Shown piece after piece: positions 3,165-41,114 of a stretch of 64,000 nucleotides of DNA. Position numbers and translations under genes: made by a program. The notes below the pieces were generated by a model. That model was not told the origin of the DNA. It did not search any database and worked only from the letters and a program-made list of their open reading frames with translations. Within the stretch, counting starts at the first letter, position 1; every line of letters starts with the position of its first letter. Source of the stretch: Escherichia coli (GTDB taxonomy: Bacteria; Pseudomonadota; Gammaproteobacteria; Enterobacterales; Enterobacteriaceae); assembly GCF_024700885.2 (NCBI RefSeq), contig NZ_CP117016.1; one strand, written 5' to 3'.

Positions 3165-5303
3165 TTAACCTATCTGCCCATTTCCCAAATGTTTAACGCG
3201 GCGCTTAACTTCTTCCTGCTTACCAGCGTTAAACGGACGTGCATCCGGGCTACCTAAATATCCGCACACGCGGCGAGTCACCGATACACGGGAGGTGTCA
3301 TGGTTACCACATTTCGGACAAGTGAAGCCTTTACTAGTGCACTCGAACTCACCGGTAAAGCCACACTCGTAGCACTCATCGATCGGCGTATTGGTGCCGT
3401 AATACGGTACATGCTGATAGCTGTAATCCCAGACATCTTCCAGCGCCTTCAGGTTGTGCTGAATGTTTGGATACTCGCCGTAGCAAATGAAACCACCGTT
3501 CGCCAGCGGCGGGTAAGGCGCTTCAAAGTCGATCTTGTCGTATGGGTTCACCTTCTTCTCCACATCGAGGTGGAAACTGTTGGTGTAGTAACCTTTATCG
3601 GTCACGCCCGGCACCACGCCAAACTCAGCGGTATCGAGACGGCAGAAGCGGTCGCACAGGTTTTCACTTGGCGTGCTGTAGAGACTGAAACCGTAACCCG
3701 TTTCTTCTTTCCACTGATCCACTGCCTGACGCAGACGTTCAACAATTGCGATACCTTTCGCGCGAAGCTGCTCGTTGTCGTAAACATGCTCGCCGCCGAA
3801 CAGCGCGTTAATGGTTTCGTGGATGCCGATGTAACCCAGCGAAATAGACGCACGACCGTTTTTGAAGATTTCAGAAACATCATCGTCAGCATTGAGACGC
3901 ACGCCACAAGCACCTTCCATATAGAGGATCGGGGCCACGCGCGCTTTCACGCCTTCGAGACGAGCGATACGGGTCATCAGCGCTTTACGTGCCAGCACCA
4001 GACGTTCATCCAGCAGCTTCCAGAAGGTGGCTTCATCGCCTTTTGCTTCCAGAGCAATACGCGGCAGGTTCAGGCTGATCACGCCGAGGTTGTTACGACC
4101 ATCGTGGATCTGCTCGCCGTTTTCATTTTCCCACACGCCGAGGAAGCTGCGGCAGCCCATCGGGGTTTTAAACGAACCGGTGACTTTCACTACCTGATCG
4201 TAGTTCAGGATATCCGGATACATGCGCTTGCTTGCGCACTCCAGCGCCAGCTGTTTGATGTCGTAGTTCGGATCGCCTTTTTTATGGTTCAGACCATCGC
4301 GAATTGCAAACACCAGTTTCGGGAACACCGCAGTTTTACGGTTTTTACCGAGGCCTGCGATACGATTACGCAGGATAGATTCCTGAATCAGGCGCGATTC
4401 CCAGCTGGTGCCCAGACCAAAACCAAAGGTTACAAACGGTGTTTGACCGTTGGCGGTGTGCAGGGTGTTTACTTCGTACTCCAGCGACTGGAAGGCATCG
4501 TAGCACTCTTTGATGGTACGAGAGTTAGCGTAGCCTTCGGCGTCCGGGATGTTCCACTCTTCTGCGGTCTTGCGATGTTTGTTGTAGCTGGCGGTGACAA
4601 ACGGTGCCAGCACTTCATCGATACGGTTAATGGTGGTGCCGCCATAAATATGGCTGGCGACCTGGGCAATAATCTGCGCAGTTACCGCGGTTGCCGTAGA
4701 GATCGACTTCGGCGGTTCAATCTCGGCGTTCCCCATTTTAAAGCCCTGGGTCAGCATGCCTTTCAGGTCGATCAACATGCAGTTGAACATCGGGAAGAAC
4801 GGTGAGTAATCGAGATCGTGATAGTGAATATCACCACGTTCATGTGCCTGCACCACGTCACGCGGCAGCAGGTGCTGGCGTGCATAGTGTTTAGCCACGA
4901 TCCCGGCCAGCAGATCGCGCTGGGTTGGAATCACCTTGCTGTCTTTGTTGGCGTTTTCGTTGAGCAACGAGGAGTTGGTCTGCTCGACCAGACCACGGAT
5001 CTCCTGGTTCAGGCGGCCGCGTTTTTCACGTTCAATGTCGCGATCGTGACGGTACTCGATGTAAGCACGAGCCAGTTGTTTGTATGGACCCGACATCAGC
5101 TGGTTTTCAACTGCGGTCTGGATCTCATTGATATCCACCTGGTTGCGGCCCTGCATCTGCTCGCTGACAACCGCAGCAACAGTGGCGCAATAATCGGCAT
5201 CATCGACTTCCGCTGCTTTAGCTGCACGCAGAATCGCTTCTTTGATGCGCTCTGATTTAAACGGCACTTTGCAGCCGTCTCGTTTCATCACATGCGGTGT
5301 CAT
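3165..5303 (-). CDS. nrdD: Anaerobic ribonucleoside-triphosphate reductase (class III)
   Basis: 712-aa product; C-terminal glycyl-radical region (RVCGYLGSP) and Zn-ribbon cysteines. Confidence 0.95.
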   Translation of the reverse strand: MTPHVMKRDGCKVPFKSERIKEAILRAAKAAEVDDADYCATVAAVVSEQMQGRNQVDINEIQTAVENQLMSGPYKQLARAYIEYRHDRDIEREKRGRLNQEIRGLVEQTNSSLLNENANKDSKVIPTQRDLLAGIVAKHYARQHLLPRDVVQAHERGDIHYHDLDYSPFFPMFNCMLIDLKGMLTQGFKMGNAEIEPPKSISTATAVTAQIIAQVASHIYGGTTINRIDEVLAPFVTASYNKHRKTAEEWNIPDAEGYANSRTIKECYDAFQSLEYEVNTLHTANGQTPFVTFGFGLGTSWESRLIQESILRNRIAGLGKNRKTAVFPKLVFAIRDGLNHKKGDPNYDIKQLALECASKRMYPDILNYDQVVKVTGSFKTPMGCRSFLGVWENENGEQIHDGRNNLGVISLNLPRIALEAKGDEATFWKLLDERLVLARKALMTRIARLEGVKARVAPILYMEGACGVRLNADDDVSEIFKNGRASISLGYIGIHETINALFGGEHVYDNEQLRAKGIAIVERLRQAVDQWKEETGYGFSLYSTPSENLCDRFCRLDTAEFGVVPGVTDKGYYTNSFHLDVEKKVNPYDKIDFEAPYPPLANGGFICYGEYPNIQHNLKALEDVWDYSYQHVPYYGTNTPIDECYECGFTGEFECTSKGFTCPKCGNHDTSRVSVTRRVCGYLGSPDARPFNAGKQEEVKRRVKHLGNGQIG

Positions 5304-5538
5304 GATCGCTCCATATTTTTAAGAACAGGTTATCCACAGAAATTGGGAAAGGCGTTTTCCGGTTTTTTCGTTTCGTTTTCCGGTGCTTTCCGCAATCGCC
5401 ATCCGCTTATCCACAACGCCGCACCTTTTTCGTGGGGAGCTGTAGTAGCAATTATAGTCGATTAATACAACATATTGGGTTGGGACGCATTTTAAAGTCT
5501 ATATATAGTGCTTTGCATCAAGGATGTTTGAACTTTTT

Positions 5539-5552
5539 TTGATGTAGCTCAA
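5539..5552 (-). promoter_or_regulatory. Possible FNR-type site in the nrdDG promoter region
   Basis: TTGATGTAGCTCAA resembles TTGAT-N4-ATCAA; lies upstream of nrdD on the minus strand. Confidence 0.3.
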
Positions 5553-5696
5553 AGTAAAAAGCAGAGCGTACGGATGACGGGCGCTACAGCGATATGTAAA
5601 TTTTTTAATGAATTTGCTGGTTGAAAAATCAACAAAAACAACATGCTGACAGACAAAACCCCGGAATGACCGGCATTACCGGGGTTTAGCGAAGAT

Positions 5697-7352
5697 TTAC
5701 TTTTGTAACCACCAGACAGCCTCAAAAGGCCGTAAAGTCATGGCGCAGGGTTGTGGTGAGGCTTCTTCGTAGTTATGCATCACAAGCTGCCAGTTGCCGC
5801 GCATTTGCCCTAGTTGCCAGGGTTGGATCTCACGGCTAAGGTTGGCAATGACCAACAAGGTTTGCCCCTTCCATTCACGGCGATAGCACCACAATACAGG
5901 GCTGTTTGGCAGCAGATCCTGGTAATCGCCCCATGTCAGAACGGCTTCTTGCTTACGCAGTGCGATTAACTTTTGGTAGGTGTAAAACACCGAGGACTCA
6001 TCGGTCAGCGCGGCTTCTACGTTGATTTGTTGATAGTTATCGCCTAGGCCAATCCACGGTTCGCCAGCCGTAAACCCGGCATTATCGCCGTTGGTCCATT
6101 GCATGGGTGTGCGACTGTTGTCACGGGATTTACTGGCGAGGATTGCCAATAACTCGTCGGCATCACGACCATCGTTGCGCAGCTCGGCAAACATATTGAG
6201 GCTCTCCACGTCGCGATAGTCAGTAATGCGCGTGAAATGCGGGTTGGTCATGCCAATCTCTTCGCCCTGGTAGATATACGGCGTTCCCTGCATGCCATGC
6301 AGCACCATCGCCAGCATTTTTGCCGCAGGCACGCGGTATTCACCTTCATCACCAAAGCGAGAAACAATGCGCGGCTGATCGTGGTTACACCAGAACAAGG
6401 CATTCCATGCCACGTTGTGCATTCCTTGTTGCCAGTGGCGGAACAATGTTTTCAACGCTACAAAGTCAGGTTTAGCCAGCGTCCATTTTTCACCACCGGG
6501 ATAATCGACTTTCAGGTGATGAAAATTAAAGGTCATCGACAATTCACTGCCTGTCAGTGCCGCGTATCGCTGGCAATGCTCAAGGCTGGTGGAGGACATT
6601 TCACCTACGGTCATTAACCCGCGTGGCGTAAACACATCGCGGTTCATCTCGTGCAAAAACTCGTGTGCTCGTGGCCCGTCGGTGTAGAAGCGACGCCCGT
6701 CGCCATCCAGGTCATCAGGGAAACGCGGGTCTTTGGAGATCAGATTCACCACATCCAGGCGCAACCCGTCGACCCCACGATCGGCCCAGAACTCACAGAC
6801 TTTTTTCAGCTCTGCGCGTACCGCTGGATTCTCCCAGTTGAGATCCGCCTGTTCTGGTGCAAAGAGATGCAAATAGTACTGTTCGCTTTCCGCATGCCAG
6901 CGCCACGCACTACCGCCAAATTTTGAACGCCAGTTGTTCGGTGGCGTTTCTGGTTCTCCATCGCGCCAGATATAAAACTGGCGGTAAGGGCTTGCTTTGT
7001 TCAGCGCCTCGCGAAACCAGGCATGTTGGGTAGAGGTATGGTTAAACACCATATCGAGAATGATACGAATCCCGCGCGATTTTGCCTGTGTCACCAGTTC
7101 GTCAAAATCGTCCAGCGTGCCGTAGGTGGGATCAATCGCTGTATAGTTCGCTACGTCGTAACCGTTATCGACCTGGGGAGAGACATAAAAGGGGGTTAGC
7201 CAGATGGCATCAACGCCCAGTTTATGCAGATAGTCCAGGCGCTGGATAACGCCACGTAAATCGCCGGTGCCGCTACCCGTGGTGTCCTGAAAACTCTTTG
7301 GATAAATCTGGTAGATAACGCCGTTTTGCCACCAGTGGGGAAGATTAGTCAT
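5697..7352 (-). CDS. treC: Trehalose-6-phosphate hydrolase
   Basis: GH13 alpha-glucosidase sequence; start placed at MTNLPHWWQNGVIYQIY (internal Met of the longer ORF 5697..7499). Confidence 0.92.
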   Translation of the reverse strand: MTNLPHWWQNGVIYQIYPKSFQDTTGSGTGDLRGVIQRLDYLHKLGVDAIWLTPFYVSPQVDNGYDVANYTAIDPTYGTLDDFDELVTQAKSRGIRIILDMVFNHTSTQHAWFREALNKASPYRQFYIWRDGEPETPPNNWRSKFGGSAWRWHAESEQYYLHLFAPEQADLNWENPAVRAELKKVCEFWADRGVDGLRLDVVNLISKDPRFPDDLDGDGRRFYTDGPRAHEFLHEMNRDVFTPRGLMTVGEMSSTSLEHCQRYAALTGSELSMTFNFHHLKVDYPGGEKWTLAKPDFVALKTLFRHWQQGMHNVAWNALFWCNHDQPRIVSRFGDEGEYRVPAAKMLAMVLHGMQGTPYIYQGEEIGMTNPHFTRITDYRDVESLNMFAELRNDGRDADELLAILASKSRDNSRTPMQWTNGDNAGFTAGEPWIGLGDNYQQINVEAALTDESSVFYTYQKLIALRKQEAVLTWGDYQDLLPNSPVLWCYRREWKGQTLLVIANLSREIQPWQLGQMRGNWQLVMHNYEEASPQPCAMTLRPFEAVWWLQK

Positions 7353-7401
7353 TACGTTATTCCTGCAAATGCGAGGGGGCGCAATTGCGCCCCGAAGAAA
7401 A

Positions 7402-8823
7402 TTAAACAATGTCCAGCGTGCCCAGGCGGTATTTCCGCTGATAGATAAACGAGGTGAGTACAATCGGGATGATGATGGCGATAGCCATTGCCAGCGCAAA
7501 CACCTGCCAGTAGCTCGGTTGAATCGAGAGAATTCCCGGCAGGCCGCCTACGCCAATGCCATTCGCCATAACGCCGTTCAGGCCGCATAGCAATCCTGCC
7601 AGACCAGAACCAATCATCGCGCACAGCATCGGGAAGCGATATTTCAGGTTGATGCCGTACATAGCAGGCTCAGTGACTCCAAGCCAGGCGGAGATAGCGG
7701 CAGGCACGGAGATCTCGCGTTCATTGTGCTTGCGGCTGGAAATGATAATGCCTATCACGGCGGAACCCTGAGCGATATTCGACAGCGCAATCAGCGGCCA
7801 CACTGGCGTACCACCCATGCTTTGAATCATCTGCAAATCAATAGCAAGCGTGGTCTGATGTACGCCGGTGATCACCAGCGGGGCGTACAGGAAGCCAAAC
7901 AATGCCGCGCCAATCGGAGCAAAGCTGCCGGTCATCAGGTGACGTACCGCAAAGGCAACGCCATCGCCAATCATGCGACCAAACGGACCAATCAGCGCAT
8001 GGGCGAGGAACACCGCGAGGATCAGCGAACAAACGGGCACCACCACCAGATAGAGGTAATCCGGCACGATGCGCTTAAGACGAGTTTCAATAACGCCCAG
8101 CGCCAGCCCGGCTAACAGTGCCGGGATCACCTGCGCCTGATAGCCCACTTTGGCGATGCTGAACATGCCAAAGTCCCACACTTCCGGCAGCTGCTGCCCG
8201 AGCAGATAAGCGTTCATCAGCTGTGGAGAAACCAGCGTTACGCCAAGCACGATACCAAGGATCGGCGTGCCGCCCATTTTTTTCACCGCTGACCAGCAAA
8301 TCCCGACCGGCAGGTAGAAGAAGATCGCTTCACCGATCAACCACAGAAAATCGTAGATCGTTTGCAGGGAAGGGTACATTTGCGCCAGCGTTTGACCGTT
8401 GCTCATGGGCAAATCGCCGATCACATTGCGAAAACCGAGGATCAAACCGCCGCTAATCAACGCGGGCAGCAACGGGAAGAAAATCTCCGCGAAATGAGAG
8501 ATCAACTGCTCATGCCATTTCATATTCTGCCGGGCGGCTTTTTTTACCTGCTCTTTATCAACCTGCGCCTGTCCGGTTGACGCTATCAGTGCTTGATAGT
8601 AATCACCCACGTTGGTGCCAATCACCACCTGAAATTGCCCGGCATTGGTGAAACAGCCTTTCACCATGGGGAGTTGCTCAATTTCTTTCGGTCTGGCATT
8701 GGCCGGTTGGTTGAGGACAAAGCGCAGACGAGTAATACAGTGGCTCACCGTCGCAATATTGCCGCGCCCGCCGACCAGTTCAATCAACCGATCGATATCC
8801 GTTTGGTTTATTTTGCTCATCAT
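7402..8823 (-). CDS. treB: PTS trehalose-specific EIIBC component
   Basis: 473-aa product; N-terminal EIIB cysteine motif (SHCITRLRF) followed by membrane EIIC domain. Confidence 0.92.
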   Translation of the reverse strand: MMSKINQTDIDRLIELVGGRGNIATVSHCITRLRFVLNQPANARPKEIEQLPMVKGCFTNAGQFQVVIGTNVGDYYQALIASTGQAQVDKEQVKKAARQNMKWHEQLISHFAEIFFPLLPALISGGLILGFRNVIGDLPMSNGQTLAQMYPSLQTIYDFLWLIGEAIFFYLPVGICWSAVKKMGGTPILGIVLGVTLVSPQLMNAYLLGQQLPEVWDFGMFSIAKVGYQAQVIPALLAGLALGVIETRLKRIVPDYLYLVVVPVCSLILAVFLAHALIGPFGRMIGDGVAFAVRHLMTGSFAPIGAALFGFLYAPLVITGVHQTTLAIDLQMIQSMGGTPVWPLIALSNIAQGSAVIGIIISSRKHNEREISVPAAISAWLGVTEPAMYGINLKYRFPMLCAMIGSGLAGLLCGLNGVMANGIGVGGLPGILSIQPSYWQVFALAMAIAIIIPIVLTSFIYQRKYRLGTLDIV

Positions 8824-34203: not shown

Positions 34204-35223
34204 TCAGAAGTCGGCTTTCAGGACCACTCGGTAGCGCGCTTTACCATCGCGTACATGCTGAATGGCGTCGTTAATTTTCGACATCGGGAACAATTCGGTA
34301 GTCGGCGCAACCTTGCTGCGGGCGGCAAAGCGCATCAGCTTACGCAACTCATAAGGCGTGCCGGTAGCAGAACCAGAGACGCTGCGGTCGCCCGCAATTA
34401 ACGTAAAGGCCGGAACAGACAGCGGCGTGAGAACCGCACCGACCGTATGGAAATTACCGCCGTACGTCAGCGCTTCAAAATAAGGCTGCCAGTCGAGGCT
34501 GACGTTGACGGTGTTGATAATGAGATCAAACTGCCCCGCCAGTGCTTTCAGTGCCTGCGGATCGCGGCTATTCACCACTTTATCGGCACCCATCGCCAGT
34601 ACTTCCTGCTCTTTCGCCGGATTCGAACTAAAGGCTGTCACCTCGCATCCCATTGCGTGCAGAAGTTTTATAGCGATATGCCCCAGCCCGCCAATACCAA
34701 TTACCCCAACGCGGCTGGTGGCAGTGATATGGTGCATTAACAGTGGTTTGAAGACCGTGATACCACCGCACAACAGCGGCCCGGCGGACTCGATATCAAT
34801 ATTTTCTGGCAGTGGAATCACCCATTGCCAGTCCGCACGCAACTTCTCGGCAAAGCCACCGCGATTCATAATCGTCGGCACCGCACCTTGCTCACAGTTG
34901 ATCTGATTACCGCTAATACAGGCATCGCAATGCCCGCAGCTACGCGCCGTCCAGCCAATCCCGACACGCTGACCGACCTGCAAACCTTTATCCTGCGCGG
35001 CGCTCCCGAGCGCCACCACGCGACCAATCACCTCATGCCCGGCAACCAGCGGATATTGTGAAAATCCCCATTCGTTATCGATCATCGACAGATCGGAATG
35101 GCAGATCCCGCAGTAATCCACCTGCACTTCAACATCTTGTGGCTTCAGTTCACCGGGATCGTACTCATAAACTTCCAGTTCGCCGCCTGCTTCTTTTGCG
35201 GCATAGCTTTTTATCATCGACAT
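34204..35223 (-). CDS. ahr: NADPH-dependent aldehyde reductase (Zn-dependent MDR family)
   Basis: 339-aa product from [14 protein letters not shown]; Zn-binding GHEVIG and CGxCxxC motifs. Confidence 0.88.
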
Positions 35224-35418
35224 TTTTTGGTCCTTCTCTGGTGTTGTCTGGGAAGTGTAGAGCATGGCAGGGCGGGGTGCCTGGAGTGTGACAAAGGTTA
35301 CACATCGCTGTATGCAATGCTGAAAATTTCAGCACTTAGCGAGGTGCGAGCAAGCTGGCGCTTGCATGGTGGCGTGCGACAGGTATAATCCACAACGTTT
35401 TCCGCATACCTCTTCAGT

Positions 35419-35503
35419 GCCGAAGTGGCGAAATCGGTAGACGCAGTTGATTCAAAATCAACCGTAGAAATACGTGCCGGTTCGAGTCCGGCCTTCGGCA
35501 CCA
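35419..35503 (+). tRNA. leuX: tRNA-Leu (anticodon CAA)
   Basis: 85-nt sequence GCCGAAGTGGCGAAATCGGTAGACGCAGTTGATTCAAAATCAACC...GGTTCGAGTCCGGCCTTCGGCACCA with long variable arm and encoded CCA. Confidence 0.9.
35479..35503 (+). repeat. Island junction (attL-like): leuX 3' end, repeated at 41077-41101
   Basis: 25-bp GGTTCGAGTCCGGCCTTCGGCACCA present twice in direct orientation. Confidence 0.75.
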
Positions 35504-36016
35504 AGTCACTAAATTCCTTACAATACAGGTAGTTAGACAATAAAATCTGTCTCTTTTGCCTGTAAGAAATGCTCTGTTATGTCCCTTGAAAAAGCCGCTG
35601 TGGTTGATAGTGGTAATTGGGATGTTAACTCATAGCGGCGTGTAGTTCCAAGCGTCAAACACGTACTGACTCAACTTGAAAGCTATGACGTAGCCACTGT
35701 CTCTAAACAATCCCAAAAACTTTTAGTGAAGCGCATTTTAGCCCGATGCCCCCGTTCTGCCGCTGTCGCGAGACGCCGCAGGGGATAAACAGGTTTATGG
35801 TGGTCACGGTACTTGCAGACCATATGCAAGCTCTGCCAGCGGTTCGGCCTCGCTCCCCTTGGGTACATGGTCATCCTGATAAGCCTCACTAACTGACATA
35901 ACTGTGATGTAGTCGCCAGAGGCTCCGCTTGTTGTCTTACCACCAACGGGGCTTTATGGATTCTATTGCGGTATGTTTGAAAGTGCGCGGGGGTTCATTC
36001 CCGCGCGTCCGGCGCT

Positions 36017-36931
36017 TTATGGTAAGTATTTAAGTATTTCTGCTGCCCAGTTTACACGGTGGATGACACGGGCATGGTGCAAGTTTCCGTCTAGTATTTC
36101 GGCTTTAGTTAGCTGGGATAACTGCTGCCAATTATTGTTAAGTATATAAGTTGCGTTATTACATTGTGAGCTTTCTAGCACGTAAATGTTTTGGCCTGTG
36201 AACCCAAATATCACGTAGCCTTGGAACCCAGCTTGCCCAACCGCTACGAAATCTGGTTTTTTACTATTGATAAGTTCAAGTCTGCCTTCAACAACAGCGG
36301 TATTGCCCTTTCCCCTGATCTTAATAGCTGAAAGGATTTTTGAGCCGATAGTACTCCAAGGCTGTTGACCCTGAGGCAGGAGGCTCCAGTTTAGTTTTAT
36401 AGATTTACTTTTAACGATGGTATTAAGTTGGTCGTCAACAGTTTCGCACAACCCAAAAAGCTCTAAAAAAAGATTAATGCAGTGAGCCACTAACTCTTTG
36501 TTGTTAGCTGTCAAACTTAGCTTTGGAGAGATGATCAACTTCTCCCCTTGAAGATTCTCTACAATCTTTAACTCTATGCTTGGTGGAGGGGTGAGGATTC
36601 TCTTGTAGCGCTTATACTCAATTTCACGAGTGTCAGTAACTTCTTGAGTTGCGCCCCCTCCGATCCATTGCTTTCTAGTCCATGAAATTTGTCTGTATGC
36701 AGTTTCTTTAGGTGCTGTTTTGTCAGGTACTGATTTGCCATTAGCATTGAATCTGGTTATTGGCCCTAAAATCTTGGGGAGGACTTCTTCACCTAAAGCT
36801 CTTTGACTTGAGAAACCAATAGAGTCCGTTTTCCCCGCATCTGGCAAAGAATGTGCAATGTAGATATCACGGCCATCAAAGTTAGGTATGTAATTATCAA
36901 TATTTCGAATACGCTTTTTCTGAATAAGCAT
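36017..36931 (-). CDS. Hypothetical protein, 304 aa, no family recognised by eye
   Basis: Long ORF with SD (AAGGAA) upstream of ATG; first gene of the island next to leuX. Confidence 0.6.
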   Translation of the reverse strand: MLIQKKRIRNIDNYIPNFDGRDIYIAHSLPDAGKTDSIGFSSQRALGEEVLPKILGPITRFNANGKSVPDKTAPKETAYRQISWTRKQWIGGGATQEVTDTREIEYKRYKRILTPPPSIELKIVENLQGEKLIISPKLSLTANNKELVAHCINLFLELFGLCETVDDQLNTIVKSKSIKLNWSLLPQGQQPWSTIGSKILSAIKIRGKGNTAVVEGRLELINSKKPDFVAVGQAGFQGYVIFGFTGQNIYVLESSQCNNATYILNNNWQQLSQLTKAEILDGNLHHARVIHRVNWAAEILKYLP

Positions 36932-37058
36932 GGATCGTTCCTTTTGATTTTATCTTACTGTTTACATAACCAACCAAGCCGGGCACAATCGAGCCGTTAG
37001 AAACGATAGTGAGGCTAACAATCGTTATGAGTTTGCAGACTCATGGCGGTCATGCTTC

Positions 37059-37094
37059 ATAGACCGGATTCACGCAGGTGACTCCGGTTTTTTT
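37059..37094 (+). terminator. Orphan plus-strand intrinsic terminator
   Basis: About 10-bp stem (CCGGATTCAC / GTGACTCCGG, one mismatch), GCAG loop, followed by 7 T; no plus-strand ORF upstream. Confidence 0.5.
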
Positions 37095-37782
37095 ATGCCC
37101 ATCATTTATACATGAGCACAACATATAGGGTGTGTTAATAAGATTACCCCCTACATGTTCAGCATTCTAGTTAGGATTCTTTGCAGTACAAGGGGTGATT
37201 TTGAGGTTAAATTGAGGTTGTCAAAGGGAAATTTCGACCAACCCTACGTGCCGTAAGGCTTAGGCTGTATGTCAATGTTTCAGAAAAAAAATGAAAATTT
37301 GATCGAGTGCTGATTTCTTTAGCACGAGAACATGAGATCGAACCAAAATATTGCAAAGTTTTGAACAAAACTTGAGCTGCCTCGTGTCTCCATAGCCAAG
37401 ACGAATGCAGTTTAAATAAGCTAAGTCAGCTCTCAAAAGTCCTTTATGACCCGAACCAAAAATTGTACCTCTTAAACCCCCACCGCAAGCGGCTCTCCGG
37501 GGTTTGTGCGCGTGGAGTAATGCGATTGTACTGGGTATGTGCGCACAACCCTCTACAAGCCGCATTCTACCGTTAGCCTATAGCTGAATCCCCGGCTTGA
37601 AAAATTGCACGCTTATGGTTGCCCCTCCCTCAACTGTATAGCTCGCCCGCGCCCCCGTGCGCATGTGCGTGCCCGCGCGTCAGGGGTCGCTGAGAAAACC
37701 CTAAGATTTTGCTCATCCGAGACAACCGTTGCAGGCGCGCGTTGCCGGGGCACACTGTTAGTGTTTGATGGTGTCATCAATC

Positions 37783-37892
37783 GACCGTTTTCTGGCACCT
37801 CCCAATCGCACGCTTTCACACTGTTGGAAAAATAGCCTTGGCTTTTCTGGCAGGCCATCCTAATGTTGGCCTCGTTTTCTGGCAGGGGTCAG
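37783..37892 (+). repeat. Three direct repeats of (C)GTTTTCTGGCA upstream of the recombinase gene
   Basis: cgaccGTTTTCTGGCAcc, ggcTTTTCTGGCAgg, ctcGTTTTCTGGCAgg at about 37789, 37843 and 37875. Confidence 0.4.
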
Positions 37893-37906
37893 ATGGGGAG
37901 ATAACA

Positions 37907-38467
37907 ATGGCAACTTTTGGCTACGGACGTGTTTCGACATCGCAGCAGGATACTGAGAACCAACGGCTGGAGCTTGGGCAGGCTGGGTGGCAAATTGATT
38001 ACTGGTTTGCCGATGTTGTTAGCGGGAAGGTTCCGGCAATGCAACGTAAAGCATTTTCTGAAATGCTCAATAAAATCCGCGATGGTGAAACGTTGGTGGT
38101 AGCGAAGCTTGATCGTCTGGGGCGTGATGCGATTGACGTCCTGCAAACGGTAAGGGCGCTGGCTGACCGTAATATCAAGGTTCTTGTCCACCAGCTTGGT
38201 AACACAGATCTCACTTCTGCCGCTGGGAAGTTGCTATTATCTATGCTCGCCGCGGTTGCGGAGATGGAGCGTGATCTGCTGATTGAGCGCACTCAGGCGG
38301 GACTATCACGAGCAAAAGCCGAAGGTAAGAAATTGGGCAGACCTCCTAAAATCGCGTCAGAAGCCCGTAGAGAGATTTTAGAGAAAAAGAATAGCGGTTT
38401 GAGTATCAGTGCGTTAGCGCGTCAATATGGCGTTTCAAGAGCGACTGTAGCAGCTATTACCGATTGA
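37907..38467 (+). CDS. Small serine recombinase (resolvase/invertase family)
   Basis: 186-aa product from MATFGYGRVSTSQQD (catalytic Ser motif), C-terminal HTH; SD GGGGAG upstream. Confidence 0.85.
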   Translation: MATFGYGRVSTSQQDTENQRLELGQAGWQIDYWFADVVSGKVPAMQRKAFSEMLNKIRDGETLVVAKLDRLGRDAIDVLQTVRALADRNIKVLVHQLGNTDLTSAAGKLLLSMLAAVAEMERDLLIERTQAGLSRAKAEGKKLGRPPKIASEARREILEKKNSGLSISALARQYGVSRATVAAITD

Positions 38468-38480
38468 ATATGGAGAGTTT

Positions 38481-39326
38481 ATGGCTTACACAGCAACTGT
38501 TATCCCTGTAATGATTGCTTCTCCTGGTGATGTCGCTGAAGAGAGACAAGTCATTCGTGAAATGATCCATGAGTGGAATGATATAAATTCAGCTCGTTCA
38601 AAAGTAATGTTGACACCAATTGGATGGGAAACTCATACATCACCCGAATTAGGAGTTAGGCCTCAGAAGTTGATTAATCAAAGATTATTAGTAGATTGTG
38701 ATTTATTAATCGGTGTGTTTTGGACTCGTCTAGGCTCACCGACTGGGAACGAGGCCAGCGGAACAGTCGAAGAAATCCACCGTCATTTGAATGCGGGAAA
38801 ACCGGCAATGATTTACTTTTCCTCAAAGCCTGTTGCCCCTGAAAGCCTTGATAGAGAACAATATGAGTCTCTTAAATTGTTCAAAACTGAGTGCATGCAA
38901 AAGGGATTGATAGAGTCTTTTAATGACTTATCTGATTTCAAAGACAAAGTCCGTAGGCAACTTTCGATAATTATTTCTAGTAGCCCTTATTTGTCTTCTC
39001 TTATATCTACCATTAACAATTCTCCTGATGCGAATACAAGTCAATCTTTGCCAGAAAGTAATTTGTCCGCCGATGCACTCAGTTTGCTGAAATTGGCATG
39101 TGTCGATGATAGCGGAACAATTTATGTGATAAGGCATTTAGGTGGCACGGATATTCAAGCGGGAAATCAATCCTTTGGTGGAAGTTCGGCTAGAGAGGTA
39201 GCCCGTTGGGAGGGCGCACTTAACGAACTGTTATCCTTTGATTATGTGATTGAAAGAGGGGCAAAAGGACAAATGTATTATGTTACTCATAAAGGCTGGA
39301 CATTTCTTGAATCTTTAAATGAATAA
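38481..39326 (+). CDS. Hypothetical protein with DUF4062/TIR-like-looking N-terminal domain, Ser-rich linker and small C-terminal domain
   Basis: 281-aa ORF 14 bp after the recombinase gene; N-terminal pattern VIPVMIASPGDVAEERQ ... CDLLIGVFWTRLGSP ... GKPAMIYF; domain call is by eye only. Confidence 0.55.
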   Translation: MAYTATVIPVMIASPGDVAEERQVIREMIHEWNDINSARSKVMLTPIGWETHTSPELGVRPQKLINQRLLVDCDLLIGVFWTRLGSPTGNEASGTVEEIHRHLNAGKPAMIYFSSKPVAPESLDREQYESLKLFKTECMQKGLIESFNDLSDFKDKVRRQLSIIISSSPYLSSLISTINNSPDANTSQSLPESNLSADALSLLKLACVDDSGTIYVIRHLGGTDIQAGNQSFGGSSAREVARWEGALNELLSFDYVIERGAKGQMYYVTHKGWTFLESLNE

Positions 39327-41076: not shown

Positions 41077-41101
41077 GGTTCGAGTCCGGCCTTCGGCACC
41101 A
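41077..41101 (+). repeat. Island junction (attR-like): displaced copy of the leuX 3' end
   Basis: Second copy of GGTTCGAGTCCGGCCTTCGGCACCA, followed by the expected tRNA terminator hairpin. Confidence 0.75.
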
Positions 41102-41114
41102 AAAGTATGTAAAT

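What the first reader, a model, noticed from the sequence alone, without database searches (positions are those of the whole stretch)
36932..37094. Orphan plus-strand terminator suggests an antisense small RNA over the start of the 304-aa gene
A strong intrinsic terminator (about 10-bp stem, GCAG loop, 7 T) is oriented on the plus strand at 37059-37094, with no plus-strand ORF upstream. The only sequence it could terminate is a short transcript running antisense across the 5' UTR and start codon of the minus-strand 304-aa gene. This is the arrangement seen in type I toxin-antitoxin or antisense-controlled effector loci.
Basis: seen in the sequence. Interest (0 to 1): 0.5.

Follow-up and report, generated by a model that had tools for sequence, protein, structure and literature searches.

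The report
Conserved antisense small RNA gene
The orphan terminator is real and ends a previously undescribed ~100-base small RNA gene, which lies backwards inside the long leader of the neighbouring 304-aa gene as part of a portable control cassette that mobile islets place in front of different cargo genes.

Summary
The plus-strand hairpin plus T7 at 37063-37094 is real. It is the 3' end of a compact unit: promoter TTTACA-17-CACAAT (36961-36989), then a ~99-nt RNA (about 36996-37094). The RNA folds far better on the plus strand (-41 vs -26 kcal/mol). It is conserved in 18 distinct sequences, with 97% of pair cells kept and compensatory changes in 6 pairs. About 25% of pairs are G.U, so the structure exists only on the plus strand. 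No Rfam family matches.

The RNA starts about 65 nt from the 304-aa gene's ATG and runs away from it, so it does not cover the start codon. It overlaps the gene's mRNA only if that mRNA starts at the conserved minus-strand promoter at 37164-37191. That promoter block is a captured copy of the enterobacterial nrdAB promoter region, with two NrdR-type boxes.

The 375-nt cassette (36944-37320) also precedes a different cargo, an 88-95-aa Cys-rich protein, in 12 loci. Its RNA promoter and terminator have decayed in two lineages that keep the 304-aa gene.

I read it as a cis-antisense RNA gating cargo expression, not a dedicated type I antitoxin. Expression and function are untested.

The parts
36944..37320 (.). 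Conserved non-coding cassette: small RNA gene plus nrdAB-like promoter block
   Evidence: Homology to about 25 loci starts at 36944 or 36960 and stops sharply at 37319/37320, whatever the cargo or the recombinase beside it.
36961..36989 (+). Small RNA promoter: -35 TTTACA (36961-36966), 17-nt spacer, -10 CACAAT (36984-36989)
   Evidence: Promoter scan. Hexamers and spacing are kept in nearly all homologues. In loci with the other cargo, homology begins exactly at the -35.
36996..37094 (+). Predicted ~99-nt small RNA; the 5' end is inferred, the 3' end is the T-run
   Evidence: MFE -41.1 kcal/mol, z -5.9, against -25.7 for the reverse complement. Covariance model hit 105 bits. No Rfam match.
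37011..37058 (+). Central long stem-loop (SL2): 5-bp outer helix, CUAAC internal loop, 12-bp inner helix
   Evidence: RNAalifold consensus. 98% of cells paired on the plus strand against 72% if read as minus-strand RNA.
37063..37094 (+).
   Evidence: Sequence. 13 alignment pairs, 4 of them with compensatory changes, 98% paired.
37096..37118 (.). Small hairpin just after the T-run (TGCCCAT...ATGAGCA); role unknown
   Evidence: Arms change together between loci, e.g. GCCT/AGGC and ATGC/GCAT. A weak sub-threshold potC hit is probably chance.
37116..37163 (-). Two NrdR-type 16-bp boxes (37116-37131 and 37148-37163) with a 16-bp linker
   Evidence: They align to the NrdR box region of Klebsiella and E. 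coli K-12 nrdA upstream. Box spacing rule and E. coli box sequences come from PMC12176259.
37164..37191 (-). Cargo promoter: -10 TAGAAT (37164-37169), 16-nt spacer, -35 TTGTAC (37186-37191); predicted start near 37157
   Evidence: Invariant TA.AAT and TTG..C in 13 aligned loci. The pattern was found in 7 of 8 loci tested.
37192..37320 (-). Upstream part of the nrdAB-like promoter region, including AAATTTGATCGAGTGCTGATTTCTT with a GATC
   Evidence: 77% identity to K. pneumoniae ubiG-nrdA intergenic DNA for the window; 90-93% for loci L185 and L138.
36932..37157 (-). Predicted 226-nt mRNA leader of the cargo gene, complementary to the whole small RNA
   Evidence: Inferred from the promoter position. 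Not measured.
36017..36931 (-). 304-aa cargo gene (hypothetical protein WP_000908169.1)
   Evidence: ORF and RefSeq annotation. 722 homologues in bacteria and archaea. No Pfam, PADLOC, NCBIfam or PHROG family. AF2 pLDDT 90 but no fold match.

Best explanation
The terminator at 37063-37094 ends a small RNA gene of about 99 nt with its own sigma-70 promoter (36961-36989). The gene sits, in the opposite direction, inside the ~226-nt leader of the 304-aa gene. That leader is transcribed from a promoter (37164-37191) copied from the enterobacterial nrdAB promoter region, including two NrdR-type operator boxes. The small RNA promoter and the cargo promoter face each other about 160 bp apart, and the two RNAs are fully complementary over about 100 nt. 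The small RNA stops 22 nt short of the operator and begins 65 nt from the start codon. Shown: the sequence elements, their conservation, plus-strand-specific RNA structure, the homology to nrdAB upstream DNA, and reuse of the cassette with other cargo. Inferred: a steadily made small RNA lowers cargo expression by colliding transcription and by pairing with the leader (RNase III cleavage or altered Rho access). The cargo would then rise only when the NrdR-controlled promoter is strongly derepressed, for example on dNTP shortage or replication stress, possibly during phage infection.
For: Terminator and fold. Strand test: 97-98% of pair cells standard on the plus strand against about 72% on the minus strand; mean MFE -40.9 vs -24.2 kcal/mol over 18 sequences. 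Covariation: 6 pairs with double changes; slid controls 34-50% paired. Promoter hexamers conserved, and the cassette boundary falls at the -35. The covariance model finds two sequences not used to build it (L212 at 82 bits, L214 at 79 bits). Minus-strand promoter and boxes are conserved and homologous to Klebsiella and E. coli nrdA upstream DNA, with box spacing as published. The same cassette precedes other cargo. On plasmids the same promoter block faces a different terminator-ended small RNA, weakly OrzO-like, followed by a 26-codon hydrophobic ORF. So the layout recurs with an unrelated RNA.
Against: There are no expression data. Both transcription starts are predicted. The -10 CACAAT is weak. 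Serratia (L084) keeps the small RNA but lacks the nrdAB-like block, so the overlap there is unproven. The RNA is more conserved in sequence (87% mean column identity) than pure antisense action would need, which hints at another constraint such as a trans target or a protein partner. Ewingella and one Pantoea have lost the RNA signals yet keep the gene, so the RNA is dispensable at least there. NrdR binding was not tested.
Confidence: 0.55

Rival explanations
1. A true type I toxin-antitoxin pair: the 304-aa protein is toxic and this RNA is its dedicated antitoxin.
For: Antisense geometry. Three Firmicutes lineages of the protein family also have a short promoter-to-terminator unit on the opposite strand 150-250 nt upstream: 13 of 53 loci, against 1 of 53 on the sense strand; background is 24 and 27 of 481. 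The plasmid version of the cassette carries a 26-aa hydrophobic ORF and an OrzO-like RNA.
Against: The RNA does not cover the ribosome binding site or start codon. The same RNA precedes an unrelated cargo in 12 loci. It is absent from about 75 distant loci of the family. It has decayed in two lineages with an intact ORF. The protein is large and soluble.
Confidence: 0.15
2. A trans-acting, Hfq-type small RNA whose real targets lie elsewhere (host or phage mRNAs); its place in the leader is incidental.
For: High sequence conservation, including the unpaired CUAAC and the apical loop. Strong hairpin with a 7-9 U tail, typical of Hfq-bound RNAs (general knowledge).
Against: No target was sought or found. 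The RNA always keeps the same position and orientation relative to the cargo start.
Confidence: 0.2
3. The conserved structure belongs to the minus-strand mRNA leader as a cis-regulatory element, and the plus-strand 'terminator' is a by-product.
For: The region lies in a long leader. The minus strand still forms the two simple hairpins.
Against: About 25% of pairs are G.U on the plus strand and become A.C on the minus strand; pairing drops to about 72% and MFE from -41 to -24 kcal/mol. The T-run and a correctly spaced plus-strand promoter are conserved.
Confidence: 0.05
4. The unit encodes a tiny protein: 11-19 codons, ...MSLQTHGGHAS, inside the central stem-loop.
For: The frame recurs and several differences are synonymous.
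Against: The stop codon is not conserved (products of 11 to more than 30 aa). The upstream ATG is absent in the window. GAGG lies 12 nt from the inner ATG, and both are buried in helices. The same changes are explained by G.U and loop positions.
Confidence: 0.05

Closest known systems
SymR-symE of E. coli (cis-antisense RNA over a stress-inducible protein gene)
   Same: A constitutive short antisense RNA is encoded inside the 5' region of a protein gene whose own promoter is held off by a stress-responsive repressor (LexA there, predicted NrdR here). The product is a protein rather than a tiny membrane peptide.
   Different: SymR covers the ribosome binding site and start codon, whereas this RNA ends its overlap 65 nt upstream of the ATG. 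There is no sequence or Rfam similarity. Here the cassette is shared by unrelated cargo genes.
zorO-orzO, tisB-istR-1 and shoB-ohsC type I systems (small RNA encoded upstream of a toxin with a long 5' UTR)
   Same: A small RNA gene with its own promoter and terminator lies upstream of, and opposite to, a gene with a long leader. The plasmid relative of the cassette gives a weak OrzO-P match (34 bits against a cut-off of 60).
   Different: Those toxins are peptides of 26-37 aa, and their RNAs pair through a short repeat rather than by full overlap. The window RNA has no match to any of these families.
Phage antisense RNAs at convergent promoters (lambda OOP, P22 sar)
   Same: Short terminated RNAs from mobile elements, made against a longer transcript from a facing promoter. 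Their action combines interference and duplex cleavage (general knowledge).
   Different: Those RNAs are part of immunity or lysis-lysogeny circuits. This one sits in front of accessory cargo in islets and prophage remnants.
nrdAB promoter / NrdR regulon
   Same: -35, -10, two 16-bp boxes 16 bp apart and about 130 nt of upstream DNA are homologous to chromosomal nrdA upstream regions.
   Different: The native nrdA leader (DnaA boxes in Klebsiella) is replaced by a leader holding the small RNA gene, and the gene driven is not a ribonucleotide reductase.

Membership tests
Intrinsic (Rho-independent) terminator | G+C-rich hairpin followed at once by a U-tract on the transcribed strand | tested here: met
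   10 pairs, loop GCAG, 7 T. Kept with compensatory changes in 18 sequences. No U-tract on the other strand.
Cis-encoded antisense small RNA | Own promoter at a suitable distance upstream of the terminator | tested here: met
   TTTACA-17-CACAAT, conserved hexamers and spacing. This is sequence evidence only.
Cis-encoded antisense small RNA | Overlap with a transcript from the opposite strand | tested here: inconclusive
   The overlap follows if the cargo mRNA starts near 37157, at the conserved nrdAB-like promoter. No 5' end data are available.
Cis-encoded antisense small RNA | The RNA is actually made | not testable with these tools
   No transcriptome data are available. Literature searches found nothing on this locus.
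Type I toxin-antitoxin system | Toxin is a small, usually hydrophobic peptide or small nuclease | tested here: not met
   304 aa with a mixed alpha/beta model, pLDDT 90; no long hydrophobic stretch is apparent in the sequence by eye.
Type I toxin-antitoxin system | Antitoxin RNA and toxin gene are inherited as a fixed pair | tested here: not met
   The RNA occurs with another cargo in 12 loci. The protein family lacks this RNA in about 75 loci. The RNA signals have decayed in L082 and L091 with the ORF intact.
Type I toxin-antitoxin system | Product is toxic when the RNA is removed | not testable with these tools
   This needs experiments.
NrdR regulon | Two partly palindromic 16-bp boxes separated by 15-16 bp at the promoter | tested here: met
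   Boxes at 37116-37131 and 37148-37163 with a 16-bp linker. Sense-strand box ACCCTATATGTTGTGC matches E. coli nrdDG box ACCCAATATGTTGTAT at 13 of 16 positions. Homology to nrdA upstream DNA.
NrdR regulon | NrdR binds and represses | not testable with these tools
   This needs binding and reporter assays.
Any Rfam family | Score at or above the family's gathering threshold | tested here: not met
   Nothing at E <= 1 over 35000-38500. Only sub-threshold potC (22.8 against 44) and BTnc231 (12 against 80) at E <= 10.

The most novel reading that the evidence does not exclude
The 375-nt cassette is a portable two-input switch that mobile islets and prophage remnants of Enterobacterales put in front of accessory, probably anti-phage or otherwise costly, genes. 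A captured nrdAB promoter reports nucleotide or replication stress through NrdR. A facing, constitutively made antisense small RNA sets a threshold that keeps the cargo silent until that promoter fires hard. The plasmid version, with the same promoter block facing an OrzO-like RNA and a 26-aa hydrophobic ORF, would be the toxin-bearing form of the same logic. The 304-aa family's recurrent upstream antisense units in Firmicutes would mean that this protein generally needs such a gate.
Probability: 0.25. Interest if true: 0.75.

Novelty: new member of a known kind. Interest (0 to 1): 0.55.

Why it matters
If expressed, this is an undescribed small RNA family of Enterobacterales. It is present in about 95 of 5,426 complete E. 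coli genomes and in Enterobacter, Kluyvera, Leclercia, Serratia, Pectobacterium and a Pantoea, with a clear and testable regulatory layout. The more interesting by-product is that the cargo promoter is a copied nrdAB promoter with NrdR boxes. That would tie expression of horizontally acquired cargo, sitting at a leuX hot spot that holds an AbiJ-like gene in other strains, to the cell's nucleotide status. It would also give a handle on a widespread 304-aa protein family of unknown fold and function.

Tried and rejected
1. A plus-strand protein gene ending at the terminator. The 49-codon ORF 36851-37000 is not conserved in length or end point.

2. An invertible promoter switch, suggested by the invertase-type recombinases next door. 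No convincing inverted repeats flank the intergenic region, and E. coli hits lie in one orientation, one place per genome. I did not pursue it further.

3. The leader segment complementary to the RNA's 5' end sequesters the ribosome binding site, so that the RNA would activate translation. This is the best duplex in the window (-10.3 kcal/mol) but is not consistent across 15 loci.

4. Terminal inverted repeats that would make gene plus cassette a small transposon. Nothing convincing was found in Pectobacterium or Ewingella.

6. The covarying 'hairpin' at 37119-37158 as a 5' stem-loop of the mRNA. It coincides with the two NrdR-type boxes; both readings stay open.

7. nrdAB as a regular neighbour of the protein family. 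This holds for only 1 of the loci held here.

8. The metagenome pattern scan returned at least 120 stretches, most of them chance matches. About 20 were real homologues.

Full report
**Setting.** The window is an E. coli-type chromosome. It carries yjgR, ahr and tRNA-Leu(CAA) leuX at 35419-35503. The last 26 nt of the tRNA are repeated exactly at 41077-41102, which marks a 5.6-kb islet. The islet holds:
- the 304-aa gene (36017-36931, minus strand);
- a 975-nt gene-free gap;
- a small serine recombinase (37907-38467);
- a DUF4062 / PDC-S60-like protein;
- a PHROG-20749 protein;
- an HTH protein.

The gene and its upstream gap are near-identical in 91 of 5,426 complete E. coli genomes, and RefSeq annotates nothing in the gap.

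**The observation.** The hairpin is as described: ACCGGATTCAC / GCAG / GTGACTCCGGT at 37063-37088, with one T.C mismatch, and seven T to 37094. The simple terminator scan missed it because of the mismatch. On the minus strand no U-tract follows the hairpin, so it terminates plus-strand transcripts only.

**What it terminates.** A sigma-70-like promoter, TTTACA-17-CACAAT, lies at 36961-36989. That places a start near 36996 and gives an RNA of about 99 nt.
- This stretch folds at -41.1 kcal/mol (z -5.9); its reverse complement folds at only -25.7.
- Homologous sequences came from relatives of the 304-aa protein and from a metagenome pattern scan.
- Eighteen distinct sequences give one consensus: a weak 5' hairpin, a long central stem-loop and the terminator. 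It has 35 pairs, 97% of cells paired, and six pairs with changes on both sides. Partners slid by 1-3 columns pair only 34-50%.
- About a quarter of the pairs are G.U. Read as minus-strand RNA, the same pairs drop to about 72%, and mean MFE falls from -40.9 to -24.2 kcal/mol. The selected structure is therefore on the plus strand.
- A covariance model built from these sequences finds two further sequences not used to build it (82 and 79 bits).
- Rfam has no matching family.
- The mechanical plus-strand ORF 36851-37000 is not conserved.

**Relation to the 304-aa gene.** The RNA starts 65 nt from the ATG and runs away from it, so it does not cover the start codon. Whether it is antisense at all depends on where the mRNA starts.
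- Upstream of the terminator is a second conserved block (37116-37320). It holds an invariant minus-strand -10 TAGAAT (37164-37169) and -35 TTGTAC (37186-37191).
- A plasmid search led to a Klebsiella record in which this block is the ubiG-nrdA intergenic region. Identity to it is 77% for the window and 90-93% for other copies of the cassette. E. coli K-12 nrdA upstream DNA aligns recognisably.
- The two 16-bp elements at 37116-37131 and 37148-37163, 16 bp apart, sit where the NrdR boxes lie. They fit the published two-box, 15-16-bp-linker rule (PMC12176259).
- The cargo promoter thus appears to be a captured nrdAB promoter. Its predicted start near 37157 gives a 226-nt leader that contains the complement of the whole small RNA.
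- The two promoters face each other about 160 bp apart, and the RNA's terminator stops it 22 nt short of the operator.

**The cassette is portable.**
- Homology to about 25 loci begins at 36944 or 36960, the latter lying directly before the -35 of the RNA promoter (36961). It ends sharply at 37319/37320.
- In 12 loci the gene beside it is not the 304-aa gene but an 88-95-aa Cys-rich protein, followed by variable genes (DUF4062, DUF2971 and others). The other side carries a serine invertase-type or a ~188-aa tyrosine recombinase.
- The model finds no copy in about 75 loci of the 304-aa family outside Enterobacterales.
- In Ewingella and one Pantoea, the RNA's promoter and terminator have decayed while the ORF is intact.

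These facts argue against a dedicated toxin-antitoxin pair and for a general regulatory cassette.

**Points that keep a gating or toxin-like reading alive.**
- On plasmids, the same nrdAB-like block faces a different terminator-ended RNA with a weak OrzO-P resemblance. Further on lies a 26-codon hydrophobic ORF with a strong Shine-Dalgarno sequence.
- In three Firmicutes lineages of the 304-aa family, an unrelated promoter-to-terminator unit lies on the opposite strand 150-250 nt upstream. That is 13 of 53 loci, against 1 of 53 on the sense strand; background is about 5% each way. One of its hairpins shows covariation. The 13 loci reduce to three independent lineages, so this is suggestive only.

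**The cargo.** The protein has 722 detectable relatives across bacteria and archaea. Its model is confident (pLDDT 90), but it has no family, solved relative or fold match. Its contexts include:
- an oppositely oriented insert among the tail genes of a P2-like prophage in Proteus;
- an islet with SIR2, a HATPase and an integrase in Methanobacterium;
- the leuX position, which in other E. coli strains holds an AbiJ-like gene.

An accessory, possibly anti-phage, role is plausible but unproven.

**Mechanism, with its status.**
- Shown: the elements, their conservation, the strand of the structure, the nrdAB homology and the modularity.
- Inferred: the small RNA is made constitutively, and the cargo mRNA starts at the nrdAB-like promoter. 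Facing transcription and a ~100-bp RNA duplex then reduce cargo expression, through RNase III cleavage, polymerase collision or Rho access to the untranslated leader. NrdR derepression would override this.
- An alternative in which the RNA frees a sequestered ribosome binding site was tested by duplex prediction and was not consistent across loci.

**Verdict.** The feature is best filed as a new, unannotated cis-antisense small RNA candidate within a portable control cassette. No experimental evidence of expression is available.

Noticed in passing
window 37116-37320: The cargo promoter block is a copy of the enterobacterial ubiG-nrdA (nrdAB promoter) region with two NrdR-type boxes. Identity to K. 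pneumoniae is 77% for the window and 90-93% for other copies of the cassette.
   Followed up: partly
L213 3440-4230 and L215 2400-3200 (Klebsiella and Enterobacter plasmids): The same nrdAB-like block faces a different plus-strand RNA ending in CCCGGTCTAATCAGCCGGGTTTTTT (OrzO-P 34 bits, below the cut-off). About 450 nt further on is a 26-codon hydrophobic ORF with a strong Shine-Dalgarno sequence (MVNLLMKLLPPLVSIIVMVVDYFNKR). A ~28-nt direct repeat links the RNA and the ORF's leader. This looks like a type I toxin-antitoxin locus.
   Followed up: partly
L026 4720-4860; L019 4820-4900; L055 1770-1880: Firmicutes homologues of the 304-aa gene have unrelated short promoter-to-terminator units on the opposite strand just upstream. 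That is 13 of 53 loci in 3 lineages, against 1 of 53 on the sense strand. In L019, a 13-nt motif ATAAGATGATTAT occurs both at the gene's start region and at the 5' end of the small unit.
   Followed up: partly
window 35479-35504 and 41077-41102: An exact 26-nt repeat of the leuX 3' end bounds a 5.6-kb islet. A second, degraded island with integrase and transposase fragments follows.
   Followed up: partly
window 35504-35969: The DNA after leuX, including a 65-nt piece at 35905-35969, is shared by about 530 other E. coli genomes. In those, a different gene follows, for example one for an AbiJ-NTD4 protein in strain ST540. This is a variable-cargo hot spot.
   Followed up: partly
L105, L106, L110, L132, L138, L151, L177, L182, L185, L190, L194, L198, L214: The alternative cargo behind the same cassette is an 88-95-aa Cys-rich protein (..HKCCGCAYDQGY..) with no Pfam family. 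It is followed by variable genes: a DUF4062 protein of 340 aa, DUF2971, bactofilin-like and others.
   Followed up: partly
window 37907-39326: A small serine recombinase of the resolvase/invertase type is followed by a 281-aa DUF4062 protein matching the PADLOC candidate PDC-S60 (E 1e-26). In other loci a ~188-aa tyrosine recombinase takes this place. No invertible segment was found.
   Followed up: partly
L219 (E. coli S163-2 and two other strains): An IS1 insertion truncates the 3' end of the 304-aa gene. Truncated variants (177-202 aa) also appear in the protein search.
   Followed up: partly
L221 1921-6924: One metagenomic homologue of the 304-aa gene lies directly after nrdA-nrdB, behind a terminator. 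It is the only such case among the loci held, so it may be coincidence.
   Followed up: yes
L222 (Proteus terrae) 5241-7610: The homologue is an oppositely oriented insert between the baseplate-spike (Phage_base_V) and Phage_tail_S genes of a P2-like prophage.
   Followed up: no
window 37096-37118: A small hairpin lies directly after the T-run, and its arms change together between loci. The sub-threshold Rfam potC hit here is probably chance.
   Followed up: partly
window 37026-37061: An 11-codon frame, MSLQTHGGHAS, lies inside the central stem-loop and recurs in homologues (up to 19 or more codons with upstream ATGs). The stop is not conserved and there is no well-placed Shine-Dalgarno sequence. 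It is probably not coding.
   Followed up: partly
window 37296-37320: An invariant AAATTTGATCGAGTGCTGATTTCTT with a Dam site (GATC) lies at the outer edge of the cassette, and homology stops sharply just after it. Its role is unknown.
   Followed up: no
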